Virus record (IMG/VR): IMGVR_UViG_2974553163_000001
Length of the DNA stretch: 64,000 nucleotides
Source: a virus
Strand: one strand, 5' to 3'
A program made the translations under genes and the position numbers. This document shows positions 10,001-22,400 of this stretch, piece after piece (positions within the stretch are counted from its first letter, which is position 1; every line of letters begins with the position of its first letter). The notes below the pieces were generated by a model that saw only the letters and a list, made by a program, of their open reading frames with translations, had not been told where the DNA came from and did not search any database.

Positions 10001-12107
10001 ATACATTAGAGGTAACTCAACTGGTCTTGCAGTTTATTCTAACTGGTTTAAAATTTGGTCAGAAAATAATCAGGGTGCATCCAGTGGTATGGATTCTGAC
10101 AAGTTAGATGCAAAACAAGGTCTATGGTATCAAACAGGTTATAACATAGGTGATACACGTGGTGGTATCACATCACCTATTGGTGATATGTTCTTACCAG
10201 AGGTTCTTGGTAAAGACAAGATGGTCTTTGAGAACTTCTATGTTAATGACACAGGTAATAAATTTACATTATACATTCCAGACTTCCATTGTAATAGTGG
10301 TGTTGGTGGTAACATCAATAATGGTGGAACATACACTATCTACTCTGATGTAGGTGCAACAAACAACATTGGTTCTATCGTAGTTGATAGTTCTGGTGGT
10401 GTTCAAGAAAAGACACACACAACTGGTGAGATTTATTCACTTGTAACTGGAACAATTGCATTCGTTGGTAATAACACTAACGCAAACGTATATGTCTTCG
10501 GTCCTAATCCTGGCACAAAATGGACAGTATCATCATCTAACAAAGTCTCTAGTGGATCTACAACAATCTTTGGATTACGTGATAATGCAAATGGTGCTAA
10601 ATTACAGATTGGTAAATCAGCAGTATCTACTACACCAACAATAGACTTTAGATCATCTGGTCAGGCACCAAACTATGACGTTCAAATGATCGTCTCTGGT
10701 GGTAATGGCACAGATGGAAATGGTGCTATTAGATTCAATGCTTCGGACTTCACTGTAAATGGTAATACAGTATGGCATGCAGGAAATGATGGTAGTTCAT
10801 CTCAGCTAGACGCCCATTACTTAGATGGTTATACACAGAACACTGCTGCAGTTGCTAATACAATCGCACGTAGGGACGCATCAGGACACTTAACAGTTAA
10901 TGACTTAACAGGTGACCAAGGTATCTTTACCAACAACGGAACAGGAACATTAAGTCTTGCAGATGGTAATGGTATTACTATTGGTAAGGCAACAACTAAT
11001 ACTGCAGTAATCAAAGGTAAGAATAATTCTAGTGTTGGTTATCTAAGATTTGGTAGCGATAGTAATTCACTTGGATACAACGGAACATATCTCAACTACA
11101 ATAACATCACATTCCGTAGCGGTAGAATAGGTATTGGTGATACAAATCCTGGCTCACCTCTTGAGATTGTTGCTGAGGGTAATGCTAGTTCTGCTACTGC
11201 ATTTGCTGACTTTAGAGACGGTAGATCAGGTTATGGTAGAATAACATTTGGTGCTGATAGTTCATCAGCCTTCATGACATTCACTGACACTGACAACGAC
11301 ACAGGTTGGCAGATGGGTTCTGATGATAATGATCAGTCATGGTTTGCTATCAGAGGATTTACTACTGCATCTGGTGCGTTAAACACAGCATTCCAGTTAA
11401 ATGCTAAACAAAACGCAGCGTTAGCAATTTACTCTGCAACTGGTAGAGTATTCATTAACAAAGGATCTAGTGTTAGTACTGGTGGTGGATCACAACTAAC
11501 GGTTGGTGGATCAATTGAAGCTAGCAGTCAACTTGTATCTACTGTTGCAACTGGTACTGCACCATTATCAGTATCATCAACCACTATGATCAATAACTTG
11601 AACGCAGACATGCTTGATGGTTATGAAGCACTTAACTTACCATACTTACAGGGTACAGTTAACCAGTGGATTTTAGATGCGGGTGGTCAGGCAAGATTCT
11701 ACTTCTCTAACAACAGTCACACTTACTTTAGAACAGGTGACGACTTCTTCTTTAGAAATGACAGTGACCAGACATTTGCATCATGGGATCAAGGTGGTAG
11801 AACACACTTCCATGAACCTGGCAGCAACAGCATTCAGTCAACATACAGAATGCAAGTTACAGGTGATAATGGATTGAACGTTAATGCATCTGAAGGACTA
11901 TCTTCTGGACAGAAGAGCACAGTTCTAAGAGCAACAGGTGACAAACAATGGATAGATAGTTATGGAATATTTAAACGTAACAGACAGGCAATCAGTGAGA
12001 GTGTCACAATATCAAGTAGTGATAACTGTATGACCGCTGGTCCTATCACTATAAATAATGGCAGCACAGTTACTGTAAGTAACGGTGGAGCATGGGCAAT
12101 CGTATAG
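1074..12107 (+). CDS. Giant multidomain tail fibre / virion structural protein (3677 aa)
   Basis: G/S/T/N-rich. Has a beta-helix-like entry (GRSAARPVKTIKKA...GEYLEDNPISLPRNCSLVGDNLRRV), repeated HG(L/F)xxGD modules, NGGxGY modules and fibre-type (N/D)ADxLDG repeats. Ends in a GPITINNGSTVTVSNGGAWAIV-type C-terminus typical of marine phage fibres. Confidence 0.8.
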   Translation: MSFQINTDQQRITASGTKATGNWTNATYSRTAAGVGNIVSVAHGIIGTEKLYIDFTSGGEVDGTFTVTKVDDDNLSFTGSATSVITAGATLAYKRVRSLSIQGDESLEISVGTGALEKDAIFIGKNAQENVRVGINTTDPQYELDVEGQIRTTRSIISDTAQVTNLDIDTIINPALNLRAPNLINFEDTDVTSPTFGTTFYPTADTPPLSDQSRRVATTDFVYQVATNDTGGRVYVSQTIGSDLNDGRSAARPVKTIKKAAQIAYGLQKATPDPSDEYVTIIVSGGEYLEDNPISLPRNCSLVGDNLRRVIVRPQNQDRHMIKASNETYIFGVVFRDALQNASNPQSTVIHTWKYAFVFDDKQRLYYEPEVQQIPAAPGNKFRGDNIFKITFNNHTGSETTLVVGRFVQGGSSGTLGTIQSVNFTGPTASPNSTGDVTILITSGVDDVFQDAETVFYDAVAANIITDINNASVSDRFDVVDAESLRPELETISNQIYQHTIDTEVETVSFRGSLNYIDTTLDRITITAHGLLTGQQVLYSQDENTTPLPGLINGIRYWVRKVDDNTIELYDNEANSLASTSITQGRKDLTGVSSDDKLHELTTGNVMLDDNHIYIKKHQFATGDGVVYRQGKMGGIGGLVDGTAYFVYKESDNWFRLASSAANATQKDASGADNPVTLSLTSTGLGFQRFELQPQVLSITTIDTSLNTVATYNGPIFNLATSSVSSDFHDYEVGQEVNVYGFQNSAIDFGSSTNTAYSISGGLITVQVTGVDNTKTSAFFGNMATLGQAGVTFNFPTADARFSKTYHIGNWSTGTGTPSLPGNSDLGLGYARYNSSNTTITFVLKQANIDTASDVSTSSGTGVSILNNLEDLNGRKYITHRIERADGYSLQFVVRANISEISTGLNPTGDQSVVGSNNYVLASLRNSPYGFSKINISDRFRDGAENIKNNQEFIAEESVGYVKYYYESSATRGTALTIGGTNFGQVAATVARGITSWAVTGDKCKIKVQKGHNLYPSFSQHTPSTATYTASSGNVVVTINGHGFEVGDLIKFDPGALVFRCSMDSYSTLHAYPRQGDPAADKWLKITAKTTNTFTVNVGTSPTVNHQVSNATYNPTTGLMELTIGNHTLKAGTSIKMPVGAVTFSCAFGGGGQVNKSYPRSDFINPGGQVTNAAYNPTTGIMTVTTTSAHGLQNGNKIQLEDDSFSFTCTHGSGTKTYPRSTDPLSGRNIPVFNVTTNTFDIQTLDVVPSTNTTTHTFVSATSTAVKKKKDAKIYDEAVRIESVTATTITVQTLENTPSTNTDAHTFISAATNAVVSGGNYTHEFASAGTNSVKKALTSAVTIANSGNATVNGTHGISDIYDDREFTIDLTDSSADTQTGSAGTFTDNQQPFRTPNSKDQGNKYGDVSELLFANADMIAEYAVNKMLAANSGYNIPTGSTACYDDLRDFIQKCVAHNLKWGGNDRVYDQAKFYIDPGFSLTRDRYVEAFNYAKDACILAGRNLPLYRNPYSTKLQYYHLATLDTGAGTVRRDAATLIQNNLDFIANEAVQRYEFDNPGHRIPGANQNCVDDALDVLRAVTYNLAYGGNEQVYDAANLYVGSTFLDGEETESRAVFALVSSIAQQVVESQTVTVEGNHGFAQVTDNTNKGTTVEANLVAGFFTIVDTAIANDNMSHATRTVATAPSCANVISAITTFFSTLTTALGSGSTAGSVSGVTRTSSPGDQQCIDDVMKITRAFQYDLRYGGNSKIVEAANLYISGASGVQHVATEVTYTRAIFAAAKELCIDAIRNNLETGQFSQIPIRSNGSITVDSSAPECANVVSALTTNWGILDNVLSSGNAYSGTTTNPDPLVVEQDQSEFSFPLVNTFLDLPVIEASPYIQNSSLISFLGGSGCEIDGAKVATPNVPRPGLKQNSQGATVAQFDPQGKSMVANAFTIICFGGTAYNVSNDGYTQLVSVFAIFCQDGILTQSGGYSSVTNSASNFGTYALRSTGFRAEAYSFDIGVIDSITDDTDGNGVPTGRQIIQVSGTTLTGIPVEDYIIKVDGYTSSDPAVEHIILETELVSGSSGTQVVAKITTNRAMDFSQGGNRYQSTNDPSFAAGSLPLSNLVGAGIRFHRPSVTNSSSHTWEYSGSGNTYAALPQNGGVGLGTAYEAAEEKFGQVYTSGTNEFGDFKVGNFVTIFNRTGAISFVGTVSISELSSIKIVGGDITITGFSQDDNLGGTFASDSLLPTQASVRDYISNNLGPYLNQPYSTNAVPSALVQLTSSGKINIDQIPALRPFNITSVTSTAERLAIEDANAGDIAIETTATTFNVATASFNTANEQITIASHGINTGDLLTYTEGTTAIGGLATGSNYYAIKVDDNTIKLASTESNASANNPVDLGSGGAGTHQIKTQGVAISYILENDLESQFLAFTPNSAYTFSVGNIIVGSSTTARGTVSSYNDGQIFNFVISTAGDSYSGDFALTISAPDDTSNGVQAAATANVVNGSVTKVTITNGGKGYYTQPTVQAQVSSGTTAVIAAQIEGRVSINIANNIKFDAGDFILDQGLVNEATGTYAQSGTTITVTESTSHNLSNADLVYLDFTSGGSSDGFYTISLINSTQYSVTSPNSGTQSGNMARKRIIDLSRVINTSASNAANWTQLTSTNIDASNIVAGTIDPERLAGKGTANSYTFLRGDSSWEYALQSIRPTTQDALVVGGSLQDSSYIQSITITNGGTGYTNGTYQNIPLGGGNVSISSDSVARGTYIVSGGTITSATVTDSGTGYTGDFSVTIPSELGGGNGAILGAVKGTINRAFGNIEIDIRKGNNLTASSIVYGNYGVFRFRKDVTNQAVGNQDQGGFIIGNDGSVSIDQGQGSELNADLLDGSEGSFYQTADNIIFGTLDPARLANVTYSISISGTADTANRIFNETASLTSNPAPAQAANGVGAALRNNNADGLSDGGTTHGVVTYRREATGSAATQLGFTANNNLYIRGNSTGLAVYSNWFKIWSENNQGASSGMDSDKLDAKQGLWYQTGYNIGDTRGGITSPIGDMFLPEVLGKDKMVFENFYVNDTGNKFTLYIPDFHCNSGVGGNINNGGTYTIYSDVGATNNIGSIVVDSSGGVQEKTHTTGEIYSLVTGTIAFVGNNTNANVYVFGPNPGTKWTVSSSNKVSSGSTTIFGLRDNANGAKLQIGKSAVSTTPTIDFRSSGQAPNYDVQMIVSGGNGTDGNGAIRFNASDFTVNGNTVWHAGNDGSSSQLDAHYLDGYTQNTAAVANTIARRDASGHLTVNDLTGDQGIFTNNGTGTLSLADGNGITIGKATTNTAVIKGKNNSSVGYLRFGSDSNSLGYNGTYLNYNNITFRSGRIGIGDTNPGSPLEIVAEGNASSATAFADFRDGRSGYGRITFGADSSSAFMTFTDTDNDTGWQMGSDDNDQSWFAIRGFTTASGALNTAFQLNAKQNAALAIYSATGRVFINKGSSVSTGGGSQLTVGGSIEASSQLVSTVATGTAPLSVSSTTMINNLNADMLDGYEALNLPYLQGTVNQWILDAGGQARFYFSNNSHTYFRTGDDFFFRNDSDQTFASWDQGGRTHFHEPGSNSIQSTYRMQVTGDNGLNVNASEGLSSGQKSTVLRATGDKQWIDSYGIFKRNRQAISESVTISSSDNCMTAGPITINNGSTVTVSNGGAWAIV
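4135..5100 (+). repeat. Internal tandem domain repeats in the giant fibre
   Basis: Three related units: TATYTASSGNVVVTINGHGF / NATYNPTTGLMELTIGNHTL / NAAYNPTTGIMTVTTTSAHGL. Similarity persists at DNA level (aacgcaacatataatccaacaacaggt ~4401 vs aacgctgcatataatcctactacaggt ~4588). Confidence 0.75.
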
Positions 12108-12110
12108 AAA

Positions 12111-13073
12111 ATGAGCACATTATCAGTTCACAATTTACAAGGAATATCAACTTATAGTAATAAGATTGAGATTCCATCTGGGCACAAATTATCTGGTGCT
12201 GCAGGACAATTTCGCTTACCTAATTATGCATCTAATGCAAAACCTAGTAATCCAGAATTAGGTGATTTGATTCTTAATTCCACAACTGCAACTTTAGAAG
12301 TTTGGACAGGCGATAGATGGGCAGTTTGTGGTGGAGGAAATAGAGGTGGATCTCAAAGTAATCCTGCAGAGTCTGGAGGAGATGCTTATGATAATGGACA
12401 ACAAACATCTGGAAATGTTTGGGTTACAATACCTGGTAGTGGAGCATTTAACTTTGAATATGATGCGGGTGATAGATATGGAACTGGAGACAGAGGTTGG
12501 ATTAAATATGACTCTGCGTTTTTTGGAGCAAACAATGCTGCGATAACACACGTAGAATATGGAAGTCCTGGTTCAATTACTCCTGCATGGAATACTAACA
12601 GCACTTCATCAACAAGTAATGATACTATCAACCAAGGAAGGTTGAGAATTGGTAGAGAGCAATCACATAGTGGTGGTAACTCATTATCAACTATTAGATG
12701 TTCATTACCTAAATTGACAAAGGCACGTTATCAGATGTCTGCAAACTCAGGTGGTGCTGATACTGCTGACTTTGGATCTTTTACACAGAACTTTAGTGGC
12801 ATCGTAAACAACTCACCTTATCAGAACAATGGATCTGGTTATTGGTGTGTTATATGGGATGGTAATCCCTCTGGTAACTTCAGCAGTAATATGCTGATCC
12901 TTGATCCAGGCAACCTCAGAAGTGGTAATGGTTCTTATAGTCAAACTATAGGTCCTCTATCATTCGGTACTGAAAGAGGTTCATCTAGTCAGGTTCCACA
13001 AATTATCTGGGGAACAACTGATGCTTATAGAGAGTACAGTTACATTAACTCTTGGGAACTTTGGTTACATTAA
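12111..13073 (+). CDS. Short tail-fibre-tip-like virion protein
   Basis: N-terminus MSTLSVHNLQG, then PxxGDLILNSTTATLEVWTGDRW fibre motif, then a G/S/N-rich globular C-terminal region. Architecture shared with 17567..18472. Confidence 0.6.
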   Translation: MSTLSVHNLQGISTYSNKIEIPSGHKLSGAAGQFRLPNYASNAKPSNPELGDLILNSTTATLEVWTGDRWAVCGGGNRGGSQSNPAESGGDAYDNGQQTSGNVWVTIPGSGAFNFEYDAGDRYGTGDRGWIKYDSAFFGANNAAITHVEYGSPGSITPAWNTNSTSSTSNDTINQGRLRIGREQSHSGGNSLSTIRCSLPKLTKARYQMSANSGGADTADFGSFTQNFSGIVNNSPYQNNGSGYWCVIWDGNPSGNFSSNMLILDPGNLRSGNGSYSQTIGPLSFGTERGSSSQVPQIIWGTTDAYREYSYINSWELWLH

Positions 13074-13079
13074 AGAATT

Positions 13080-14249
13080 ATGGCATCTAGAATTAAAGTT
13101 GATGAAGTAACAAACGTAGCGGAATCGGGATCGGTTTCGTTTCCAGCTGGTGGTGCCAGTTTTACTGGAACCGTTAATGTTAGTGGTAATATTGACTTTA
13201 CTGGACAACTACTACAAAATGGATCTCCATTCGTAACACTACCTACACAAGACGCAAGTAACTTAGGTTCTGTTCTTAGATCTGGTGGTAATACTGGACA
13301 AGCATATTGGGATACTACAGGTGGTACAGGAACTGCAGAAGGTGCTGACCAAGCAAGATATAAAGCAGGATTTAATATAACAAAAGGTTTTAGTTGTTGT
13401 GGATATAGAGGAGGAACATCATATAGAAACGTTAATGTATTAACACACGCTACATTCTCACAGTCAAACTTAGGAGATTTGACTAACTGGTCTGGTGCAT
13501 ATATTGATGGAAAACCAAGTCTAAACTTTACTGGATTTGTATTTGCAACTGGTAACGGATGGAACACAACTACCAGTCAGGTATCTAAAATTAACATGAA
13601 CACTAGCAGTAATGCGGGTGCTGCCACATCAATGGCAGGAACAAAACACAGAGCTACTGCAATGGCAAAAGATTTTAACTTTGCTTATGTACATGGTGGT
13701 GGTAACTCTAGTCAGATGGTGAAGTATAATCTTAATACAGAAGCAAATGCTTTTAGTACAACTCACCCTGATGGTACGCAAAACAACCCTGCATCTAGTC
13801 AAGCTTCTACTGTTGGACATATAAAAACAGGATCTGCTAGAACATATAACTTCTCAACAGAATCATTTACATCATGGCCTAACGGACCTGGTACAGACGG
13901 AACTAACAAAACTCTATCAAGTAGAGATGGTTTTGCATACTGGAATACTGGTGGTGGTTATCGAACATCTAGTGACTGGCATTTAAGAAGCACATACACT
14001 GGTGGATACTTAGCAAACGTCAGTAAGAACGGACTAACAACTGGTGAGGAAACCATGCACACAGGTAATGACTATGGATTTATTTGTGGTCAGTATGATG
14101 GATCTCAGAATAACAACGGATATCTCTTTACATATGCAAGTCATAGTTTCACAAGAGATAGTAGAATGGACAGGTCAGGACCTCCTGGCACAGCGTCTGC
14201 TGCGGGTATAGAGTTCGGAACTCTAATGTATGGATACACAGGATTCTAA
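13080..14249 (+). CDS. Virion protein with a fibre-type N-terminus and a predicted beta-propeller (kelch-like) C-terminus
   Basis: MASRIKVDEV N-terminus. Repeated G-rich blades (GFSCCGY, YVHGGG, YWNTGGG, GFICGQY). Confidence 0.55.
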   Translation: MASRIKVDEVTNVAESGSVSFPAGGASFTGTVNVSGNIDFTGQLLQNGSPFVTLPTQDASNLGSVLRSGGNTGQAYWDTTGGTGTAEGADQARYKAGFNITKGFSCCGYRGGTSYRNVNVLTHATFSQSNLGDLTNWSGAYIDGKPSLNFTGFVFATGNGWNTTTSQVSKINMNTSSNAGAATSMAGTKHRATAMAKDFNFAYVHGGGNSSQMVKYNLNTEANAFSTTHPDGTQNNPASSQASTVGHIKTGSARTYNFSTESFTSWPNGPGTDGTNKTLSSRDGFAYWNTGGGYRTSSDWHLRSTYTGGYLANVSKNGLTTGEETMHTGNDYGFICGQYDGSQNNNGYLFTYASHSFTRDSRMDRSGPPGTASAAGIEFGTLMYGYTGF

Positions 14250-14251
14250 TC

Positions 14252-14998
14252 ATGACAAAGAAGTATTACATAGCAAGACATGACCCTCGTATCACAGAGA
14301 TACTTACTGCTGAATTAACTTTTAATCAGTATGGTGTTACTGTATTTTCTATTGATGAAGCTTGGGTAAGAGATCTCCATAAGTTACATGGTTCATATGA
14401 AGAGGTAACAGAAGATATAGGTGAATGGGGTGTAAAACACTTTGGTGAAGTTCGTACTGAAGTTAAGGTTACTTCAGAAGATCCACTATCATCTGAAAAT
14501 ATTATGGGAGATGTCTCAACAGAAGGAAAGACTGTTGTTACATTACCTCAAGAAAGAATTGATGCTGCTATTGCCTTTATGAAAGTTGCAGCAAAACTAA
14601 TCATTGAAGATGAGTATGATAGAAAGTTCTTGACATTAAAAGCAGAAGAGTCTAAAATAGAACAGTATCTTTGGGATGCCCAGATAACCGAAGCTAATAA
14701 TTTAGAGGGTGAAACACCCTTACTAAATAGTATTGCTACCGCCAAAGGCATTGCGGTATCTGACGTGGCAACTGCTGTCTTGGCAGGAAACAAAACTTTT
14801 AATGATAAAGTAAAAGCATTGTATGACTCAATGTTAGTGCTTAAGCAAGAATTTAAAAGTTGTGCTACAATAAAAGAACTTAATGTTCTATGGCAAAAAT
14901 ATATGGGTGTGCCTATGCCATTCAGTCAAATGGAGGAAGAGGGTCTTATCGGTGAAGATGGAATCCCACCTGTAGTGCCAACTGGTTTACAATTCTAA
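14252..14998 (+). CDS. Putative tail-fibre assembly chaperone-like protein
   Basis: Segment YLWDAQITEA...ETPLLNSIATAKGIAVSDVATAVL resembles the W-x-x-Q-x-x-EA...TPLL-x-x-IA-x-x-(R/K)G pattern of phage fibre-assembly proteins. Lies directly after a fibre-type gene. Confidence 0.5.
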   Translation: MTKKYYIARHDPRITEILTAELTFNQYGVTVFSIDEAWVRDLHKLHGSYEEVTEDIGEWGVKHFGEVRTEVKVTSEDPLSSENIMGDVSTEGKTVVTLPQERIDAAIAFMKVAAKLIIEDEYDRKFLTLKAEESKIEQYLWDAQITEANNLEGETPLLNSIATAKGIAVSDVATAVLAGNKTFNDKVKALYDSMLVLKQEFKSCATIKELNVLWQKYMGVPMPFSQMEEEGLIGEDGIPPVVPTGLQF

Positions 14999-15011
14999 AT
15001 TAACTTTTTTT

Positions 15012-15779
15012 ATGTACAATATATCAGGTGATGCGATTGAAGCTTTCGTAGAAAGCAGCATGGACTATGGAATGACACATGAACAAATTAAGAATTTTGT
15101 TGTCAATTCCCACGTAACGGATAAGAGAAAACTCCGTCAAGTATTAGTAGAGATAGAAAGAAGAAATCACGATAGAAAAAAATGCGTCTTGGATCGTAAG
15201 AGAAAAGAAGTAGAAATCGCACGTCTTAAAGATAGATTACAAATTACTGAAGATCCCTATGAACGTCAACTCATGGAGTTTGACATAGAGGAATTTGAGT
15301 TAGATAGAAATAAGTATAACGTAACTCTTCATCAATATGATAATGAGTTAGCAGCGTTTCTGGATTGGATCAATAAAAACTGGGGAAGTATTGAAGAAGT
15401 TGAGAAGGCAGCAGAATATACTGAAGAAGATGAAAGAAAATATTGGATTGCTAGAATGGGTAAGCAAGCAGCAATGGATGTATATACAACAGGTAAGATT
15501 GGAACTGGTAACTTAGACTCTATCGCTATGATGAGAGAGGATGATCAGTTTGCAACTCTCAATGTTGCAATGCAATACTCTGGTTTGCTCAATGTGGGTA
15601 TCGCTAAGATACAAAATGAATTGAAACCTCACCTAGATAAACTAATGATGGATGGAACTTCCACTCGTGTCCCTACTATGGAAGGGATTGAGGATAGTCT
15701 CAACCTCAAACTATATGATCAATTAGCTGGTAATGAACAAAAGAGTCTTCTCTCTCCCGATCAATCCGAAACTGAGTGA
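15012..15779 (+). CDS. Hypothetical coiled-coil protein
   Basis: 255 aa, charge-rich helical stretch (KRKLRQVLVEIERR...). Overlaps the next gene by 47 nt. Confidence 0.7.
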   Translation: MYNISGDAIEAFVESSMDYGMTHEQIKNFVVNSHVTDKRKLRQVLVEIERRNHDRKKCVLDRKRKEVEIARLKDRLQITEDPYERQLMEFDIEEFELDRNKYNVTLHQYDNELAAFLDWINKNWGSIEEVEKAAEYTEEDERKYWIARMGKQAAMDVYTTGKIGTGNLDSIAMMREDDQFATLNVAMQYSGLLNVGIAKIQNELKPHLDKLMMDGTSTRVPTMEGIEDSLNLKLYDQLAGNEQKSLLSPDQSETE

Positions 15780-17472
15780 AGAGTTTGTAACTAATACATT
15801 CCTTCCATTTCTTAAAAAGTATCGCGAATACATATTAGATCTATATTTTACATGTAGAATACCTCCGTTTGATCAAGACGCTATGGGAGATACTTTCCTG
15901 TCTCCAGAAGCATTAACAGAATCAGCAATATACATTTCTAACGAATCAAATATACCACTGTCAGCGACGTTTAATAATATATGGGTTAGACCAGATCAAA
16001 AGAATCTAGACTTATGGATAAAGGAGTTTGCTCCCATCTATAATTCTGGAGTCAGAGTGGTAACTTTACCTCATACATCATGGGTTTCTACAGGACAAAT
16101 AAGATCAGTATTTCCAGAGTTGTTTGTTAAAAATACTATTCTTAGAGAGGTTACAAAACCTAATGATATAGTGCAGTTAGCAGAAGCAGGATTTAATTAT
16201 ATAAACTTAGACCGTGATCTCATGAGAGATCGTGATCAACTCTTACGTATTAGAAAAGCAAAGGACTATTGTAAGTATCTTGGCAAACCCGTTATGCTCT
16301 CAATGCTTGTCAATGAAACATGTTGGGGTGGTTGTCCTATCATGCCAGAGCATTATCAATACAATGCAACTAGAACAGAGAATGATCCTATATTTTTTGC
16401 TAGTCCTATCAGTAGAGTGTCTTGTTCTACATGGGATGTAGAGCATCCTGAGTTTGATCTCAAGCAAGCAAACTTACCTCCATGGAGAGAAGATTGGATA
16501 GAGATGCAAGAACTTGGTATTGATACATTTAAACTTCATGGTAGAGAGAGTATGATGAGACTCCAAGAAAGTATGGATCTCATTAAGAGGTGGGCAGATC
16601 AAGATGAATACATGTTTCCTGAGTATAAAAAATATACTAAAGCATTAAAAATAAAGGATTCTCCTATTAGTAAATGGAGAGAGAAGATCAAGACATGTAA
16701 GTTTGACTGTTGGGACTGTAACTATTGTGAGGCAGTGGTGCAATCACATATGAAAAAACAAGACTTAATTGTGCACCCACAGGTAGAAACATGTATTGAA
16801 GGATTTACAAACTCTGGTAAGTATCTCTCTAATCATAGAACTTATGATCCTAATGACCCTAGTGCATATTATAATGTGCCAGGTCTAACATCTGCTAGAG
16901 TCAGACATTTTCTAAACAACCTCTGCTCTCAAGAAGGAGCAGTATATCTTGAGGTTGGTGTATATGCAGGAGCAACATTTTGTGCTGCAGTACAAAACAA
17001 TGACATGGTTGCTGCATATGCAAATGATAACTGGTCACAACAAAACTTACAGCCAGCAAGAGAAGATATAAATTTAGATATTCAAGATGTAACTGTAGAT
17101 ACTTTTGTACAAAACTTACAGGAAAATATAACAACAGACTCATTAGACTTTGATATACAAGTATTGAATGGAGACTCTTCTGAGTTGGGTAAGAAAGATT
17201 TTAAACATGATGTTAATATAATATTCTATGATGGAGATAATTCTGAAAAGAAAATGAAAGAGTTCTTTGTCAATATGATTGACTTCACAGAAGATGTATT
17301 TACATTAGTTGTGGATGATGCAAATATAGAAAACAATGTTAGGATAACTAAAAGGTACATTGAGGACTTAGGACTTAAGGTTTTATATGAAAGAGAATTG
17401 TTAAATGATCAAGAAGATCCTGAGATGTGGTGGAATGGTTTGTATGTGACTGTTCTTCAAAAACAAATTTGA
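15733..17472 (+). CDS. Peptidase-U32-like (Fe-S) domain fused to a class I SAM-dependent methyltransferase
   Basis: N-terminal region has NETCWGGC...C and TFKLHGRE (U32 KIEGR-like) plus CKFDCWDCNYC. C-terminal region has motif I YLEVGVYAG, IFYDGD and LVVDD (Methyltransf_24-like). Confidence 0.65.
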   Translation: MNKRVFSLPINPKLSEEFVTNTFLPFLKKYREYILDLYFTCRIPPFDQDAMGDTFLSPEALTESAIYISNESNIPLSATFNNIWVRPDQKNLDLWIKEFAPIYNSGVRVVTLPHTSWVSTGQIRSVFPELFVKNTILREVTKPNDIVQLAEAGFNYINLDRDLMRDRDQLLRIRKAKDYCKYLGKPVMLSMLVNETCWGGCPIMPEHYQYNATRTENDPIFFASPISRVSCSTWDVEHPEFDLKQANLPPWREDWIEMQELGIDTFKLHGRESMMRLQESMDLIKRWADQDEYMFPEYKKYTKALKIKDSPISKWREKIKTCKFDCWDCNYCEAVVQSHMKKQDLIVHPQVETCIEGFTNSGKYLSNHRTYDPNDPSAYYNVPGLTSARVRHFLNNLCSQEGAVYLEVGVYAGATFCAAVQNNDMVAAYANDNWSQQNLQPAREDINLDIQDVTVDTFVQNLQENITTDSLDFDIQVLNGDSSELGKKDFKHDVNIIFYDGDNSEKKMKEFFVNMIDFTEDVFTLVVDDANIENNVRITKRYIEDLGLKVLYERELLNDQEDPEMWWNGLYVTVLQKQI

Positions 17473-17535
17473 CTTTTAAATTACAAATAAACAGAAAAAA
17501 TTTTTTGGGTAATTTTTCCCTTAAAGGTTTTTCGT

Positions 17536-17542
17536 CTAAATA
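17536..17542 (+). promoter_or_regulatory. Late promoter variant CTAAATA
   Basis: CTAAATA about 25 nt upstream of ATG 17567. The same variant recurs before several late genes. Confidence 0.6.
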
Positions 17543-17566
17543 TAGTAGGACTTATTACAGGATATA

Positions 17567-18472
17567 ATGGGAACGCTTAATGTAGGAACTGTAAATGCCA
17601 GTACTTTAGATGCTGCAGCAGCTCTAAACTTTCCAACATATAGCACTGGTTCTAGACCTAGTAGTGGAATAGATACAGGTGCTACAATTTATAATAGCAC
17701 TACCGAGAAGTTACAGACATGGAATGGATCTGAATGGATGGATATCGGTGGTGGTTCAGAACCAGATGGATCTTCTTCTGATAAAGCAGCAGCAAGTGCA
17801 GCAGCTATATTACAAGTTAATCCTCAAGCAACAGATGGTGTCTATTGGATTTTACTCCCAAGTGTAGGAGCAAAGCAAGTATATTGTATGATGGATACAA
17901 ACCACTTGGGTGGTGGAGGTTGGATGTTAGCATGGAAATGTACTAGAGGAAGTACATTCCACTATGACACTAGTTACTGGACATCTACTAACACATATAA
18001 TGAAACATCTCAGTTGAATAGAAACGATGGTGATCATAAGAACCACGTATTTAATTACTTTGTTGCAGGAACACTCGGTGCTGTATTTCCAGACTTGAAC
18101 AATGGTGGACAATCATCAGTTGGTTATAATGGTTGGACTTGGAAACAAGGTGGTGTAGGACAGACATGCTTACAAAGATTCCAAAGTAACTATCGGATAT
18201 CAAGTAACCCACGTGGAGAAAGTATGTGGCAGGGATCTGGATTCTCTGGTCAAGGTGGATTCCAATGGTATGGATTTAACTATACTGGATCAAGTAACAA
18301 TGCTATGCGTTGGGGATTTGGTTGGAACAACGAGGGTGGAGAAAGTTCTAATGACGTTTGTAGTGGTATCGGTCATCGTAGAACAGACTCATCTGCAGGA
18401 GATCATATCTACTGCTGTCAATCCACTACTGGTGTAAATAGAAGCTGTCGTGCGGAGATCTGGGTACAATGA
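17567..18472 (+). CDS. Tail-fibre-tip-like protein with fibrinogen C-terminal-like domain
   Basis: GATIYNSTTEKLQTWNGSEW fibre motif followed by DGVYWI...QVYCMMD...GGGWML, the entry signature of fibrinogen-C-like domains. Confidence 0.7.
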   Translation: MGTLNVGTVNASTLDAAAALNFPTYSTGSRPSSGIDTGATIYNSTTEKLQTWNGSEWMDIGGGSEPDGSSSDKAAASAAAILQVNPQATDGVYWILLPSVGAKQVYCMMDTNHLGGGGWMLAWKCTRGSTFHYDTSYWTSTNTYNETSQLNRNDGDHKNHVFNYFVAGTLGAVFPDLNNGGQSSVGYNGWTWKQGGVGQTCLQRFQSNYRISSNPRGESMWQGSGFSGQGGFQWYGFNYTGSSNNAMRWGFGWNNEGGESSNDVCSGIGHRRTDSSAGDHIYCCQSTTGVNRSCRAEIWVQ

Positions 18473-19458: not shown

Positions 19459-19485
19459 TATCTGAAGGACTTATTGTACCACAGA

Positions 19486-22400
19486 ATGAAGAAGGTAATA
19501 GTAAGGATCAACGATAACTATAGCATAGATCAAGCTTGTGCAGGGATCTTGAGTTTATATGGTTACTTATCCTTTGTAGAATCATTTAGATCATTTCAAA
19601 TAGTTACTTTCGATTGCCCTGCAATATATGAAAGCAATTTATTAACAAAATTAAAAGCATTAAATGTAGTTAAGAATGCTACATGGGATGCTCAGGTTTA
19701 TGCAGGAGATCCAATGCCAGGAGAGGCAACTCTTAATGTCGATACTTCTGGATCTGCTTCTCTCAATACTGATGGTGAAACAACAGCAACAAGTAATACT
19801 AGAAGTTTAACAACAAGTGGTTCTGGTACAATGTATGTCAAGGTACAGAACATAGGTGGTAATGACTTCTTCACATTCTCACAAACTTCTGGCGGTACAT
19901 ATAGCAGATTTTATAATCAATCGGGTTTCATGCAAGGTGGAACTTATACGTTTGATCAGAGTGATTCATCTAATAACGGACATCCATTTAGATTTTCAGC
20001 AACACAAGATGGAACTCACACTGTAGGAGGTACAGGAGAATTAACAGCAGGAGTAAGCGTTACAGGAACGCCAGGTACAAATGGAACAACAGTCTTAACT
20101 GTTAGTTCATCTACACCATCTATCCTATACTATTATTGTGCAACTCATCCTGGTATGGGACGATACACTGCAACACCAGACAGATATGGAACTGTTAATA
20201 TTTTTGACTACTGGCACTTAGATAGAATTACAAAGCAAGACAGGCAATATTTAAACGGACAATTTAGTCAAACATCAAATGGATCAGGAGACGGTGTAGA
20301 TATTTACATCATAGACTCTGGTGTTCGTGGTGCGTCTAGACCTACAGGTAACAACGCAGCACTACATCCTGATCTTTATGACCCAGACTTTGTTACTGAC
20401 CTTAACGGTTCTGCAGAACAACAGAACTATAGAGTATTTCAGTTGGGTCATTATAGTGGTGCTTATGGAACTAATAATGAAGATGATCAAGGACACGGAA
20501 CTAAGTGTGCTCTTTTATCAGCTGGAAGGACAGCTGGAATAGCAAGACAGGCAAAAATATATTCATTAAAGGCATTTGATAGTAATGTAAGTGGTTCTTA
20601 TAGTGGAATACTAGCAGCATATCAAGCAGTCATAGATCACAATGACAGCGGTAATGCTAATTACAAGGGCAATAATCGTCCTGCTGTTATCAACGCATCG
20701 TTCGGACCTACAATTCCTACACAGAACTCACCTAACATAGAACTTAATGATAGTGGAGATGATACTGGAACTGATGAAGAGATGTTAGATGACATCGAAG
20801 GAACTATAGCAACAGCTGATAAAATAATTATTGTTAGATCTGCGGGTAATGGATTTAGGAATAGTAGTGATGTAACTGCAGGACCTTTGCAAACTAAGTG
20901 TGTAGCGGGTGCAAGAACAGCAGGATATCCTGATAACAGTAATGGTGGTATCAATAATATAGATACAAACCAAGACAAAATTACAGTTGGTGCTACATCA
21001 TACAATGACAGATGGGCATTCTTCTCTAACTATGGATCAGGTTGCACTACAGTGGCACCAGGTGAAAAAGTTATTACTCCTGCATATGACTGGACTGCTA
21101 ATACACCATATACAAGCACAACAAACTATGATTGTATAGATGGCACATCATTCTCAGGACCTATCGTTGCGGGCATCATAGCATCATGGTGTGGTAAGAA
21201 TGGATATACTTTAACTACAAACAACCTAACAGGTTTAGCAAAACAATTCATTAGAACTACGGGATCAGCTGGTGATATTAGAACTGGTACTCACGCTAAC
21301 TATCCGATCAACAGCATAATAGATAAGAAACTTATAGACAATCCATATGTCACTTTTGCGGGAAGCGACTTTGTAGAAGTTAAGTTCAATCCAGCTGATG
21401 CTTCACATTTCTTAAATAACGTGGGTAAAAAAGTTCAATTAAGAACTACAGGATCTACAGCAGGAGCAGGAAGTTCTACACCTACAAACTTTACATTAAC
21501 TACAACATCACCTGGCTTCTTTTATAATGTCTCTGGTACAGATAGGAATGGTAGTGTTTCTGGAACTCACCCAACTGTTACATGTTATGTTGGAGATACA
21601 GTAACTTTCCAATTATCAAACGTTGCAAGTAACCATCCACTGTATATTAGAGATTCATCTGGTTCAAGTAATGTAACAACTCCAACCGCTACTGGTCAAG
21701 GTTCTACAGGTAATGGTACAGTCGCTTGGACACCAAATACAACTGGAACATATTCTTATATTTGTGGCATACACAGCAGTATGAAAGGAACTATCACAGT
21801 GCAGTCTGCACCTGGCGGTAGTGGAAGTGTTGTGGTTGGTGGTATAAATTTATCAACACTATCACAATCTGGTTGGTTAAACATAGCATCAGAGAGTGCA
21901 GTTAATAATAGTATTACTATACAAGCACCAAATAATGCTACAGCTGGTACAACAGGTGGTGGAACAAATAATTATTTGGCACTGATTAACTCAGAAGGAA
22001 AAACACATGAGAGTTATGATGGTGTAGTATCTACATCAACATCTTTGACATCTTCTACTGATGTACAGGAAGGACTTGGGCAAAGTTCTGCTGTTACATA
22101 TTATCCTGTAGATAGTGGTGTTGATTTCAACTACAATGGTAGTGGTGCAAGTCTTACTACACAAAGAGGTGCATTCTATCCGTTTGTCGATACTAATGTA
22201 ACTTGGCAAACTTCATCTGGAACTTTCATGGGAAGTCCATATACTAATGGTGCTAGTGTTAGTTTAGATCTAGGTTTGCAAGGAACTACCTTTGCCAACG
22301 AACCAACCTTTGAAGCATACACTCTAAGTGGGGATTCCATCGGTGCTACTGGTTTAACCTTTGATACAGCAACAGGTTCTTTATCTGGAACGGTAACATC

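What the first reader, a model, noticed from the sequence alone, without database searches (positions are those of the whole stretch)
13080..17472. Tightly coupled four-gene module: propeller tip, chaperone-like protein, coiled-coil protein, U32-methyltransferase
The four ORFs are packed with gaps of 2 and 13 nt and a 47-nt overlap. I saw no internal late promoter, and the block ends at an AT-rich boundary (17462-17535). An enzyme co-transcribed with a fibre tip and its putative chaperone suggests a dedicated assembly-and-modification unit rather than a stray metabolic gene. This is my best candidate for an uncharacterised system in the window.
Basis: inference. Interest (0 to 1): 0.7.

Follow-up and report, generated by a model that had tools for sequence, protein, structure and literature searches.

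The report
Fibre-tip propeller cassette with U32-methyltransferase enzyme
In the tail-fibre region of a T4-like cyanophage, four tightly packed genes (a Kelch-type propeller, two helical proteins of no known family, and an iron-sulfur-enzyme-like domain fused to an O-methyltransferase) form a cassette that travels together in many marine phages and even a Ralstonia jumbo phage, which suggests that phages chemically tailor or mature a host-recognition protein, although the enzyme's target is not shown.

Summary
ORFs 13080-14249, 14252-14998, 15012-15779 and 15733-17472 exist with gaps of 2 and 13 nt and a 47-nt overlap, and they end at a 23% GC spacer.

- **ORF1:** a six-bladed Kelch-type propeller (Z 29.8).
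- **ORF4:** a TIM barrel whose best solved match is the U32 protein Mk0906 (Z 16.9), fused to an O-methyltransferase fold (Z about 15). It fails the Pfam U32 model and has its own set of seven invariant cysteines.
- **ORF2 and ORF3:** no known family. The "chaperone" label for ORF2 rests only on an embedding lead.

Of 108 related viral loci with enough flank, 107 carry the ORF3 family, 107 the ORF1 family and 101 the ORF2 family upstream on the same strand. This holds despite swapped gene order, fission of ORF4 into two genes, and added radical SAM, 2OG-oxygenase and halogenase genes. A phiKZ-like Ralstonia phage keeps Kelch, ORF3-like and U32-like genes in the same order.

My best reading (about 45%) is a fibre-tip maturation or tailoring cassette. 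The substrate is unknown.

This scan had already followed up the same module on other genomes and reached the same reading. It is a new variant of known kinds, not yet a demonstrated system.

The parts
12052..12057 (+). Late-promoter-like TAAATA (context aTAAATAa), 59 nt before gene 12111. Candidate start of the transcription unit that contains the module.
   Evidence: RNA-library contigs begin near 11849-11909 and run through to 15258.
12111..13073 (+). 320-aa fibre-like gene (phrog_4831), packed 6 nt before ORF1. Its N-terminus is weakly similar to those of ORF1 and gene 17567.
13080..14249 (+). ORF1, 389 aa (T4-GC351 'sericin-like', phrog_1417). Residues about 97-384 form a six-bladed Kelch-type beta-propeller. 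Residues 1-95 are a low-confidence N-terminal stalk or adaptor.
   Evidence: AF2 model with pLDDT 78. VIA Z 29.8, rmsd 2.5, 273 aligned to the KLHL17 Kelch domain 6hrl_B. Family invariants are G108, Y109, Y141, G322, E323, G337, G370 and S373.
14252..14998 (+). ORF2, 248 aa (T4-GC352, phrog_1604). Variable protein of no known family with no invariant column. Possible assembly factor (lead only).
   Evidence: The Atlas feature lead to HI1402_helical/Caudo_TAP clusters scores 0.92.
14723..14729 (+). Internal CTAAATA inside ORF2, 288 nt before ORF3. Possible internal late promoter or a chance match.
15012..15779 (+). ORF3, 255 aa (T4-GC353, phrog_1409). Charged N-terminal half plus a strongly conserved core at residues 138-182 (nt 15423-15557). 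It is the most constant neighbour of the U32-like gene.
   Evidence: Invariants are Q43, E47, E112, W145, R148, Q152, D156, G161 and G166. Adjacent to the U32-like gene in RP12, L012 and 107 of 108 loci.
15733..16752 (+). ORF4 N-domain (residues 1-340): divergent U32-like (beta/alpha)8 barrel. Motifs are NETCWGGCP (16312-16338), C231 (16423-16425), FKLHGRE (16528-16548) and CKFDCWDCNYC (16696-16728).
   Evidence: AF2 pLDDT 85. VIA Z 16.9 to Mk0906 5d88_A. Seven invariant Cys. Motif positions.
16894..17472 (+). ORF4 C-domain (residues 388-579): class I SAM-dependent O-methyltransferase-like Rossmann fold. Motifs are LEVGVYAGAT (16948-16977), YDGDNS (17227-17244) and VVDDAN (17308-17325). GC is 32.5%.
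   Evidence: Pfam Methyltransf_24 E 1e-4, below cut-off. VIA Z 14-15 to O-methyltransferases 8c9v, 6g7d, 4cdz and 5zw3. It is a separate gene in about 40 related loci.
17473..17566 (+). AT-rich spacer (23% GC) that ends the block. Holds CTAAATA at 17536-17542, 30 nt before the next gene.
17567..18472 (+). Next fibre-like gene (301 aa, phrog_1325), with an N-terminus like that of gene 12111. Shows that the module is embedded among fibre-tip genes.

Best explanation
The four genes are the core of a conserved virion-tip cassette in the tail-fibre (host-recognition) island of large myoviruses.

**Proposed roles.**
- ORF1 is a Kelch-type propeller head on a short stalk, most likely a fibre-tip or accessory binding protein.
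- ORF4 is a two-step enzyme. A U32-like iron-sulfur TIM barrel would introduce a hydroxyl group on a carbon, and the fused metal-dependent-type O-methyltransferase would methylate it.
- ORF3 is the enzyme's constant partner, either a subunit or a targeting factor.
- ORF2 is a variable assembly or adaptor protein.

Together they would mature or covalently tailor the propeller protein, or a neighbouring fibre protein, late in infection.

**Shown here:** the folds, the invariant cysteines, the gene linkage and the late-gene setting.

**Inferred:** iron-sulfur binding, the hydroxylate-then-methylate chemistry, the ORF3-ORF4 contact, the virion location of ORF1, and the identity of the substrate.
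For: **Linkage**
- ORF1, ORF3 and ORF4 relatives each occur in 121 cyanophage records with the same organism and host breakdown; ORF2 relatives occur in 110.
- Of 108 U32-like genes in viral contigs with at least 4.5 kb upstream, 107 have the ORF3 family, 107 the ORF1 family and 101 the ORF2 family on the same strand within 8 kb. Counted by sequence cluster, that is 19, 19 and 18 of 20.
- The link survives several rearrangements: ORF2/ORF3 order swaps; ORF4 split into two overlapping genes; 1-3 ORF1 paralogues; and inserted radical SAM (44 loci), 2OG-Fe(II) oxygenase and Trp-halogenase genes.
- The phiKZ-like Ralstonia phage RP12 has, in the same order:
  - a collagen-like fibre gene, ORF143;
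  - a Kelch-like ORF142 (HMM E 7e-8, hhalign 82%, Foldseek E 5e-10);
  - ORF141;
  - ORF140, in phrog_1409 (E 9e-69);
  - a U32-like ORF139.
- The RP31 orthologue of ORF143 was found in virions by mass spectrometry (PMC5468394, supplement).
- A more distant U32-like relative sits between a glycine-rich fibre-type protein and a halogenase.

**Folds**
- ORF1 is a Kelch propeller, Z 29.8.
- The ORF4 N-domain has the U32 protein Mk0906 as best match among 48,161 chains: Z 16.9, 227 of 247 residues aligned.
- The ORF4 C-domain matches O-methyltransferases including TrmR, Z 14-15.
- The U32-type motifs N-x-x-C-x3-C and K-x-x-G-R are present.

**Setting**
- The genes are packed with flanking fibre-like genes, with late-promoter-like motifs only at 12052, 14724 and 17537.
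- Contigs from RNA libraries bridge all four junctions.

**Known chemistry**
- U32 enzymes hydroxylate aromatic ring carbons and are followed by O-methylation: TrhP then TrmR, and UbiU/V followed by O-methylation (PMC6599085; bioRxiv 10.1101/587956).
Against: - No modification, interaction or virion location was measured.
- ORF1's Kelch-like orthologue and the enzyme orthologues are not among the 32 RP31 virion proteins listed.
- ORF4's N-domain does not reach the Pfam U32 model: only 1 of 55 relatives matches, at E 0.033. It also lacks the CX6C half of the U32 cysteine motif.
- The profile-profile match to E. coli U32 proteins is only 62% probability, so hydroxylase chemistry is an analogy.
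- ORF2 matches no chaperone family.
- A few U32-like relatives stand without the partners (L010, L013-L015). In S-ShM2-type phages 12 genes separate ORF3 from ORF4.
- The conserved residues of ORF1 are the usual structural Kelch positions, and no obvious target residue stands out.
- Tail-fibre islands are known to collect unrelated genes (PMC7029224).
- The loci analysed are the best 80 matches of each of two scans, so they are not an unbiased sample.
Confidence: 0.45

Rival explanations
1. Small-molecule tailoring island. ORF4, together with the radical SAM, 2OG-oxygenase and halogenase genes found in other phages, makes or alters a metabolite or peptide-derived compound during infection. The propeller and helical proteins are then pathway parts or simply neighbours.
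For: - The extras in related loci (radical SAM, several 2OG-Fe(II) oxygenases, a flavin Trp-halogenase, a methyltransferase) are the typical toolkit of natural-product clusters.
- Iyer et al. 2010 read the cyanophage arrays of dioxygenases and halogenases this way (PMC2938197).
- The best methyltransferase fold matches are small-molecule and sugar O-methyltransferases: 8c9v, MeT1, SpnH.
Against: - No precursor-peptide gene, synthetase or transporter is conserved in the cassette.
- The constant partners are a Kelch propeller with a fibre-like N-terminus and two non-enzymatic proteins.
- The cassette always follows a giant fibre gene and is on the late-gene strand.
- The window itself has none of the extra enzymes.
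Confidence: 0.22
2. Nucleic-acid modification. ORF4 works like TrhP plus TrmR (or like RlhA), putting a 5-hydroxy and then a 5-methoxy group on a pyrimidine in tRNA, rRNA or phage DNA.
For: - The only characterised U32 enzymes acting on macromolecules hydroxylate C5 of U34 in tRNA and C2501 in rRNA (PMC6599085, PMC5727448).
- B. subtilis TrmR is among the fold matches of the C-domain, at Z 14.3.
- A one-protein hydroxylase plus methylase is chemically neat.
Against: - There is no RNA-binding domain. The TrhP-type Peptidase_U32_C domain is absent, and the barrel is followed directly by the methyltransferase.
- The TrmR match is not better than those to sugar and catechol methyltransferases.
- This reading does not explain the near-constant linkage to a Kelch propeller and to ORF3 in T4-like and phiKZ-like phages.
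- RP12 keeps the U32-like gene without any methyltransferase.
Confidence: 0.12
3. No functional link. The four genes are neighbours only by common descent within a hypervariable fibre island that collects unrelated genes.
For: - The host-recognition cluster of T4-like marine phages is known to hold many genes unrelated to fibres, including radical SAM cassettes (PMC7029224).
- In S-ShM2, L080 and L093 ORF4 is separated from ORF1-3 by 2-6 kb.
Against: - Linkage persists at 20-40% protein identity, through changes of gene order, fission and fusion of ORF4 and added genes.
- It also persists in a phiKZ-like phage of a different lineage.
- Start and stop codons overlap between ORF3 and ORF4 in most loci.
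Confidence: 0.08
4. Processing protease. The U32-like domain is a true peptidase, as the family was first named, and trims or releases the propeller or fibre protein during assembly.
For: - The family was founded on reported collagenase activity (my own knowledge of MEROPS U32/PrtC).
- RP12 has a collagen-like fibre gene three genes upstream.
- ORF1-type proteins have subtype-specific C-terminal tails.
Against: - All well-characterised U32 proteins are Fe-S hydroxylases.
- The seven invariant cysteines and the fused or adjacent methyltransferase fit redox chemistry better.
Confidence: 0.06

Closest known systems
U32-family O2-independent Fe-S hydroxylases: TrhP/YegQ, RlhA, UbiU-UbiV; solved fold Mk0906 (PDB 5d88)
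   Same: - The TIM-barrel fold matches: Z 16.9, 227 of 247 residues aligned.
- The N-x-x-C-x3-C and K-x-x-G-R motifs lie at matching places in the barrel.
- Cysteines are invariant.
- Hydroxylation is followed by O-methylation in the known pathways: TrhP then TrmR, and UbiU/V followed by O-methylation.
   Different: - It does not reach the Pfam PF01136 model.
- It lacks the CX6C half of the CX6CX15CX3/4C motif.
- It has an extra invariant C231 and a C-terminal CX3CX2CX2C box.
- It has no Peptidase_U32_C domain and no second U32 partner.
- It is fused to, or adjacent to, its own methyltransferase.
- It is virus-borne and linked to a Kelch propeller and to phrog_1409.
Metal-dependent class I O-methyltransferases (Methyltransf_24/TylF and COMT-like: MeT1, SpnH, TrmR)
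   Same: The Rossmann fold matches at Z 14-15. There is a glycine-rich SAM motif and acidic DGD and DD-x-N motifs. Some relatives pass Pfam PF13578 (best E 1.1e-8).
   Different: The window's own copy is below the Pfam cut-off (23.6 against 26.3 bits). The substrate is unknown. It is fused to a U32-like barrel.
Hydroxylase (plus sulfotransferase or methyltransferase) operons with tail-collar or collagen-like substrate proteins, and cyanophage dioxygenase/halogenase arrays (Iyer et al. 2010, PMC2938197)
   Same: Modifying enzymes are encoded next to a fibre-type non-enzymatic protein that is the presumed substrate. 2OG oxygenases and halogenases join the cassette in related phages.
   Different: Here the core enzyme is a U32-like Fe-S protein, not a 2OG dioxygenase. 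The linked protein is a Kelch propeller. Two further conserved proteins of unknown family belong to the set.
Host recognition cluster (HRC) of T4-like cyano- and pelagimyophages (PMC7029224)
   Same: The genomic place matches: the variable island with giant fibre genes in the structural region. That paper already notes non-fibre genes and radical SAM cassettes there.
   Different: The HRC is a region, not a system. The present cassette is a defined, conserved four-family unit inside it, and it also occurs outside T4-like phages.
Tail fibre plus assembly-chaperone gene pairs (T4 gp37/gp38, Mu/P2/lambda Tfa); from my own knowledge
   Same: A small variable gene (ORF2) directly follows a fibre-tip gene with a 2-nt gap.
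   Different: ORF2 matches none of these families by Pfam, PDB or NCBIfam. There is only an embedding-based lead.
Kelch-type propeller proteins of jumbo phages (CBB, PhiPA3, Noxifer, BcepSaruman)
   Same: These are six-bladed Kelch folds. Several are named virion structural proteins in their records.
   Different: Sequence identity is only 10-17%. The virion location of ORF1 has not been tested.

Membership tests
Peptidase U32 / U32 Fe-S hydroxylases (PF01136) | TIM-barrel catalytic domain like Mk0906 | tested here: met
   VIA-align top hit of 48,161 chains is 5d88_A: Z 16.9, rmsd 3.2, 227 aligned, model residues 1-277. Atlas bacterial U32 clusters give TM 0.49/0.58.
Peptidase U32 / U32 Fe-S hydroxylases (PF01136) | Sequence match to the Pfam model above its cut-off | tested here: not met
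   No hit for ORF4 at E up to 0.1. One of 55 family members hits, at E 0.033. Ten relatives gave none at 0.01.
Peptidase U32 / U32 Fe-S hydroxylases (PF01136) | Profile-profile homology to bona fide U32 proteins | tested here: inconclusive
   hhalign of the family profile against TrhP, RlhA, UbiU and UbiV of E. coli gives probability 62% and E 7.5e-5 for residues 59-179. A greedy alignment extends to residues 5-302 and pairs KLHGR with KIEGR. The U32 profile had only 4 sequences.
Peptidase U32 / U32 Fe-S hydroxylases (PF01136) | Four-cysteine motif CX6CX15CX3/4C that binds a 4Fe-4S cluster (bioRxiv 10.1101/587956) | tested here: not met
   Only a CX3C (C197, C201) is present at the matching place, and the CX6C pair is absent. 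Other invariant cysteines are C231 and C322/C326/C329/C332.
Peptidase U32 / U32 Fe-S hydroxylases (PF01136) | Fe-S binding and prephenate-dependent hydroxylation | not testable with these tools
   Needs anaerobic purification, spectroscopy and an activity assay.
Class I SAM-dependent O-methyltransferase (Methyltransf_24) | Rossmann methyltransferase fold with SAM-binding glycine-rich motif | tested here: met
   VIA Z 14-15.4 to 8c9v, 6g7d, 4cdz, 1o54 and 5zw3 over residues about 365-579. Motif LEVGVYAGAT at residues 406-415.
Class I SAM-dependent O-methyltransferase (Methyltransf_24) | Pfam PF13578 above its cut-off | tested here: inconclusive
   ORF4 scores 23.6 bits against a cut-off of 26.3, E 1e-4. 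Nine of 55 relatives match, best E 1.1e-8.
Kelch-repeat beta-propeller | Six-bladed propeller of four-stranded blades | tested here: met
   Z 29.8, 29.3 and 28.9 to the KLHL17, Keap1 and KLHL12 Kelch domains, with 268-273 residues aligned at rmsd 2.4-2.5. The model's pLDDT is 85-97 over residues 100-380.
Kelch-repeat beta-propeller | Match to Pfam Kelch models | tested here: not met
   No Kelch family at E up to 0.1. There is only an Atlas lead: Kelch_1 in 12% of one cluster.
Tail fibre assembly protein (Caudo_TAP, HI1402_helical, DUF4376) | Sequence match of ORF2 or its relatives to these families | tested here: not met
   No Pfam hit for ORF2 or for any of 27 relatives at E up to 0.1. No PDB match. 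There is only a feature-similarity lead scoring 0.92.
Virion (fibre-tip) protein | Presence of ORF1 in purified particles | not testable with these tools
   No proteome was found for a phage with this gene. The RP31 virion list contains the collagen-like neighbour but not the Kelch-like orthologue.
Single late transcription unit | One transcript across the four genes | tested here: inconclusive
   Contigs of four RNA libraries, identical to the window, bridge 11849-15258 and 15351-16410. Contigs cannot prove a single transcript or exclude DNA carry-over.

The most novel reading that the evidence does not exclude
Large phages encode a dedicated enzymatic system that covalently tailors their own receptor-binding proteins. 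A virus-specific branch of U32-like Fe-S enzymes, with its partner phrog_1409 and an O-methyltransferase, would install methoxy groups on aromatic or other carbon positions of a Kelch-propeller fibre tip. In other lineages a radical SAM enzyme, 2OG oxygenases and a halogenase would add to this. Host recognition would then be tuned by chemistry rather than by sequence alone.
Probability: 0.3. Interest if true: 0.85.

Novelty: new variant of a known kind. Interest (0 to 1): 0.62.

Why it matters
Cyanomyoviruses are among the most abundant viruses in the sea, and their tail-fibre islands decide which Prochlorococcus and Synechococcus cells they kill. T4-GC 351-354 have stood as 'hypothetical' since 2010.

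This work shows three things about them:
- they form one conserved cassette;
- their enzyme belongs structurally with the O2-independent U32 hydroxylases;
- the same core occurs in non-cyanophage T4-like contigs and in a phiKZ-like phage.

That gives a concrete, testable lead: enzyme-made modifications on phage receptor-binding proteins. If true, it would add a new layer to host-range determination. It would also explain why cyanophages carry so many oxygenases and a halogenase whose natural substrates are not established. And it would assign a first protein substrate to the U32 superfamily. If the target is instead a metabolite or RNA, the cassette is still a new U32 branch with a fixed partner protein.

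Tried and rejected
- **Sequence searches of ORF4, ORF2 and ORF3 profiles against PDB chains:** only chance-level matches.
- **NCBIfam:** nothing.
- **Foldseek 'pdb' with the whole ORF4 model:** swamped by methyltransferases and TIM-plus-Rossmann proteins, so it says nothing about the N-domain.
- **PF01136 search of the nearest held virus record:** no match. The window's own assembly is not held.
- **The search for related loci with the broad alignment A1:** failed for lack of a conserved stretch. Narrower alignments worked.
- **ORF1 C-terminal tail as substrate.**
  - The idea was that subtype-specific tails (YGYTGF here, GHCGWR in the split-gene type) mark the substrate and track the radical SAM gene.
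  - It was rejected as evidence. Loci without radical SAM (L141, L142, L165) have the same tail. In the model the aligned segment is the last propeller strand.
- **N-terminal 235 residues of the fused relative P0137:** no relation to ORF1-3.
- **RNA contigs:** none covers about 16440-17490, the AT-rich 3' part of ORF4, in the four libraries. This is not evidence of anything.
- **Literature:** no paper links cyanophages with peptidase U32, or the 'sericin-like' protein with virions, in the searched library.
- **Sullivan et al. 2010:** the main text does not discuss T4-GC 351-354. Only the supplementary table lists them.

Full report
**What is in the sequence**

One search confirms four + strand ORFs:
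- ORF1, 13080-14249, 389 aa
- ORF2, 14252-14998, 248 aa
- ORF3, 15012-15779, 255 aa
- ORF4, 15733-17472, 579 aa

They are spaced by 2 nt, 13 nt and a 47-nt overlap. The spacer after ORF4 (17473-17566) has 23% GC against 38% for the window. It carries CTAAATA 30 nt before the next gene.

The block is not delimited upstream. A 320-aa gene (12111-13073) ends 6 nt before ORF1 and starts 3 nt after a 3677-aa gene. The nearest late-promoter-like motif lies at 12052. One further CTAAATA lies inside ORF2 at 14723-14729. The sigma-70 and terminator scans are at chance level.

**Source of the window**

The window is from a T4-like cyanomyovirus. All DNA and protein matches are to Kyanoviridae. The four gene lengths are identical to T4-GC 351, 352, 353 and 354 at 90401-94793 of one of the 16 cyanophages in the supplementary table of Sullivan et al. 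2010 (PMC3037559). There the clusters are listed only as 'similar to sericin 1 precursor' and hypothetical proteins.

**The four proteins**

*ORF1.* An AlphaFold2 model built on 30 relatives (pLDDT 78; 85-97 over residues 100-380) has a low-confidence N-terminus (residues 1-95). Residues 97-384 form a six-bladed Kelch-type propeller: VIA-align Z 29.8, rmsd 2.5, 273 residues aligned to the KLHL17 Kelch domain, with Keap1 and KLHL12 close behind. No Pfam Kelch model matches. The N-terminus is weakly alike in ORF1, gene 12111 and gene 17567. This fits a shared stalk or adaptor, but the evidence is thin. In the viral structure library the model matches Kelch-like proteins of jumbo phages, some named virion structural proteins in their records.

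*ORF2* (phrog_1604). It matches no Pfam, NCBIfam or PDB family, either alone or through 27 relatives, and its family has no invariant column. The only pointer to tail-fibre assembly proteins is a language-model similarity of 0.92 to clusters with HI1402_helical or Caudo_TAP. That is a lead, not a test.

*ORF3* (phrog_1409). It also has no known family. Its family has a sharply conserved core at residues 138-182, with W145, R148, Q152, D156, G161 and G166 invariant. That argues for a specific binding or catalytic site rather than a mere coiled coil.

*ORF4* (phrog_1458). The model has pLDDT 85 and pTM 0.72.
- Residues 1-340 are a (beta/alpha)8 barrel. Its best match among 48,161 solved chains is the U32 protein Mk0906: 5d88_A, Z 16.9, rmsd 3.2, 227 of 247 residues.
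- Predicted-structure clusters nearest to it include viral clusters in which 20% of members carry PF01136. They also include bacterial U32 clusters (TM 0.49/0.58) and, slightly weaker, a radical SAM cluster (TM 0.47).
- Residues about 365-579 are a class I methyltransferase fold. The nearest matches are O-methyltransferases (8c9v, MeT1, SpnH, TM0748, TrmR; Z 14-15.4). There is a weak Methyltransf_24 hit (E 1e-4, below cut-off), and 9 of 55 relatives match it more clearly.

**Is the N-domain a U32 member?**

By fold it is. By the family's sequence definition it is not.
- PF01136 does not match ORF4. It matches one of 55 relatives, at E 0.033.
- A profile-profile comparison with the four E. coli U32 proteins gives 62% probability (E 7.5e-5) over residues 59-179.
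- When that alignment is extended, it pairs ORF4's KLHGR with the U32 KIEGR. It also pairs N-E-T-C-x3-C with the N-x-G-x-C-x3-C of TrhP.
- Pelosi et al. describe the U32 cysteine motif as CX6CX15CX3/4C (bioRxiv 10.1101/587956). Only its CX3C half is represented here.
- The family instead has seven invariant cysteines: C197, C201, C231, and a CX3CX2CX2C box at 322-332.

I therefore file it as a divergent, virus-centred branch that works like a U32 enzyme at best by analogy. The family is large: 247 representatives at 50% clustering and 1900 proteins at 90% clustering. It has many stand-alone forms of 330-380 aa.

**Do the genes travel together?**

*Isolated phages.* ORF1, ORF3 and ORF4 relatives each occur in 121 cyanophage records with the same breakdown by organism and host. 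ORF2, the most divergent, occurs in 110. ORF4's N-domain also occurs in three Ralstonia jumbo phage records.

*Viral contigs.* I fetched 157 loci around U32-like genes, at 100% down to about 40% identity, and searched them with iterated profiles of the four families. Of 108 U32-like genes with at least 4.5 kb upstream:
- 107 have the ORF3 family, 107 the ORF1 family and 101 the ORF2 family on the same strand within 8 kb.
- 100 have all three.
- Grouped into 20 sequence clusters, the counts are 19, 19 and 18.

*The layout changes while the membership stays*:
- the window's order 1-2-3-4;
- 1-1-1-3-2-[radical SAM]-4N-4C, with ORF4 split into two overlapping genes (about 40 loci);
- 1-1-3-x-4-[Trp halogenase]-[2OG oxygenase];
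- 1-3-2-[2OG oxygenase x2]-4-[halogenase].

Four large contigs with the cassette (176-331 kb) encode a gp23-type capsid protein. They hold no psbA, including one estimated 93% complete. So the cassette is not confined to cyanophages.

**The Ralstonia case**

RP12 is a phiKZ-related jumbo phage (PMC5468394). It has, in this order:
- a collagen-like fibre gene, ORF143;
- ORF142, a 292-aa protein that matches the ORF1 family (HMM E 7e-8; hhalign 82% over 238 columns; Foldseek E 5e-10 to a 292-aa RP12 protein);
- ORF141;
- ORF140, a phrog_1409 member (E 9e-69);
- ORF139, the U32-like gene (38% identity);
- a DUF401-type membrane protein in place of the methyltransferase.

In the sister phage RP31, the orthologue of the collagen-like gene is among 32 virion proteins found by mass spectrometry. 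The Kelch-like and enzyme orthologues are not listed.

A still more distant U32-like relative (428 aa) sits between a glycine-rich fibre-type protein and a halogenase.

**Exceptions**
- A fused form lies in a bacterial-type assembly next to Maf/MptE-like and acetyltransferase genes (L010).
- A phage contig has no recognisable partners (L013-L015).
- In S-ShM2-type phages 12 genes, among them three 2OG oxygenases, petE and gnd, separate ORF3 from ORF4.

**Expression**

Four small RNA-seq libraries of one 2016 study hold contigs identical to the window. They bridge gene 12111, ORF1, ORF2 and the start of ORF3 (11849-15258), and the ORF3/ORF4 overlap (15351-16410). This is compatible with co-transcription but cannot prove a single transcript or exclude DNA carry-over.

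**Most likely mechanism**

The constant core is a Kelch propeller, phrog_1409 and the U32-like barrel. The methyltransferase is nearly always fused or adjacent, and further redox and halogenating enzymes join in some lineages. The cassette always lies behind a giant fibre gene on the late-gene strand.

Known U32 enzymes hydroxylate ring carbons without O2, and in their pathways an O-methyltransferase follows: TrhP then TrmR, and UbiU/V followed by O-methylation (PMC6599085; 10.1101/587956). The simplest reading is a hydroxylate-then-methylate enzyme whose partner is ORF3. Its target would be the propeller protein or a neighbouring fibre protein, with ORF2 as a variable assembly factor. I give this about 45%.

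The rivals:
- A small-molecule tailoring island, the reading Iyer et al. 2010 gave the cyanophage dioxygenase/halogenase arrays (PMC2938197): about 22%.
- tRNA, rRNA or DNA modification: about 12%.
- Mere co-location in the hypervariable host recognition cluster described for these phages (PMC7029224): about 8%.
- A true processing peptidase: about 6%.

None of the biochemical steps is shown.

**Novelty and earlier notes**

I found no paper on this cassette or on a phage U32-methyltransferase.

Within this scan, first readers flagged the same fusion in several other cyanophage genomes. Three follow-up reports on other genomes described the same Kelch, two-helical-protein and U32-methyltransferase cassette with the same open question. 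My analysis was done before I read them, and it agrees. It adds:
- the RP12/RP31 case with its virion proteome;
- the co-occurrence counts;
- the split-gene and swapped-order forms;
- the RNA-contig bridging for this phage.

I rate it a new variant of known kinds (a U32-like enzyme with a methyltransferase; a fibre gene with accessory genes). It is worth a bench test, but not yet a demonstrated new system.

Noticed in passing
window 19474-24969: An 1831-aa late protein lies directly downstream of the fibre-tip genes. I did not examine it.
   Followed up: no
window 12111-12440, 13080-13409, 17567-17896: The N-termini of gene 12111, ORF1 and gene 17567 align weakly (a shared M..., LP.Y, G..I.NST..L..W.G..W, GGG pattern, clearest between 12111 and 17567). 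This may be a common stalk or adaptor on different heads.
   Followed up: partly
window 16894-17472: The methyltransferase part of ORF4 is markedly AT-rich (32.5% GC; 30% in 300-nt windows) compared with 36-40% in the rest of the module.
   Followed up: no
L071:12121-16081 and L086: Two complete copies of the 1-2-3-4 cassette lie in tandem on one contig, about 1.0-1.4 kb apart. This is a duplication of the whole unit.
   Followed up: no
L155:1-3706: The ORF1 paralogues, and the ORF3 homologue after them, are broken into many short ORFs of 70-144 aa, while the radical SAM, U32-like and methyltransferase genes behind them are intact. This is either decay or sequencing errors.
   Followed up: no
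L004:7016-8056 (Ralstonia phage RP12 ORF138): A DUF401/CitMHS-like membrane protein overlaps the end of the U32-like gene by 8 nt, at the place where cyanophages have the methyltransferase.
   Followed up: partly
L010:1558-3297: A 579-aa protein in an NCBI assembly carries the U32-like domain at its C-terminus, behind an unrelated Cys-containing 231-aa domain. It lies near ribonucleotide reductase, a Maf/MptE-like gene and an acetyltransferase.
   Followed up: partly
window 11849 and 17492: In three of the four RNA libraries a contig starts at 11849 (11909 in the fourth), and in all four a contig starts at 17492-17501. This is some 200 nt and 45 nt upstream of the late-promoter-like motifs. 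Contigs cannot place transcript ends.
   Followed up: no
L129:10704-12212, L141, L102, L173:2692-4488: A full-length flavin Trp-halogenase gene directly follows the U32-methyltransferase gene in 14 loci. Such cyanophage halogenases have no established natural substrate, and this fixed neighbourhood may point to one.
   Followed up: partly
Prochlorococcus phage P-SSM3 (HQ337021.1 114207-115511): tblastn with ORF4 covers only residues 5-444. The methyltransferase part may be diverged, truncated or split there.
   Followed up: no
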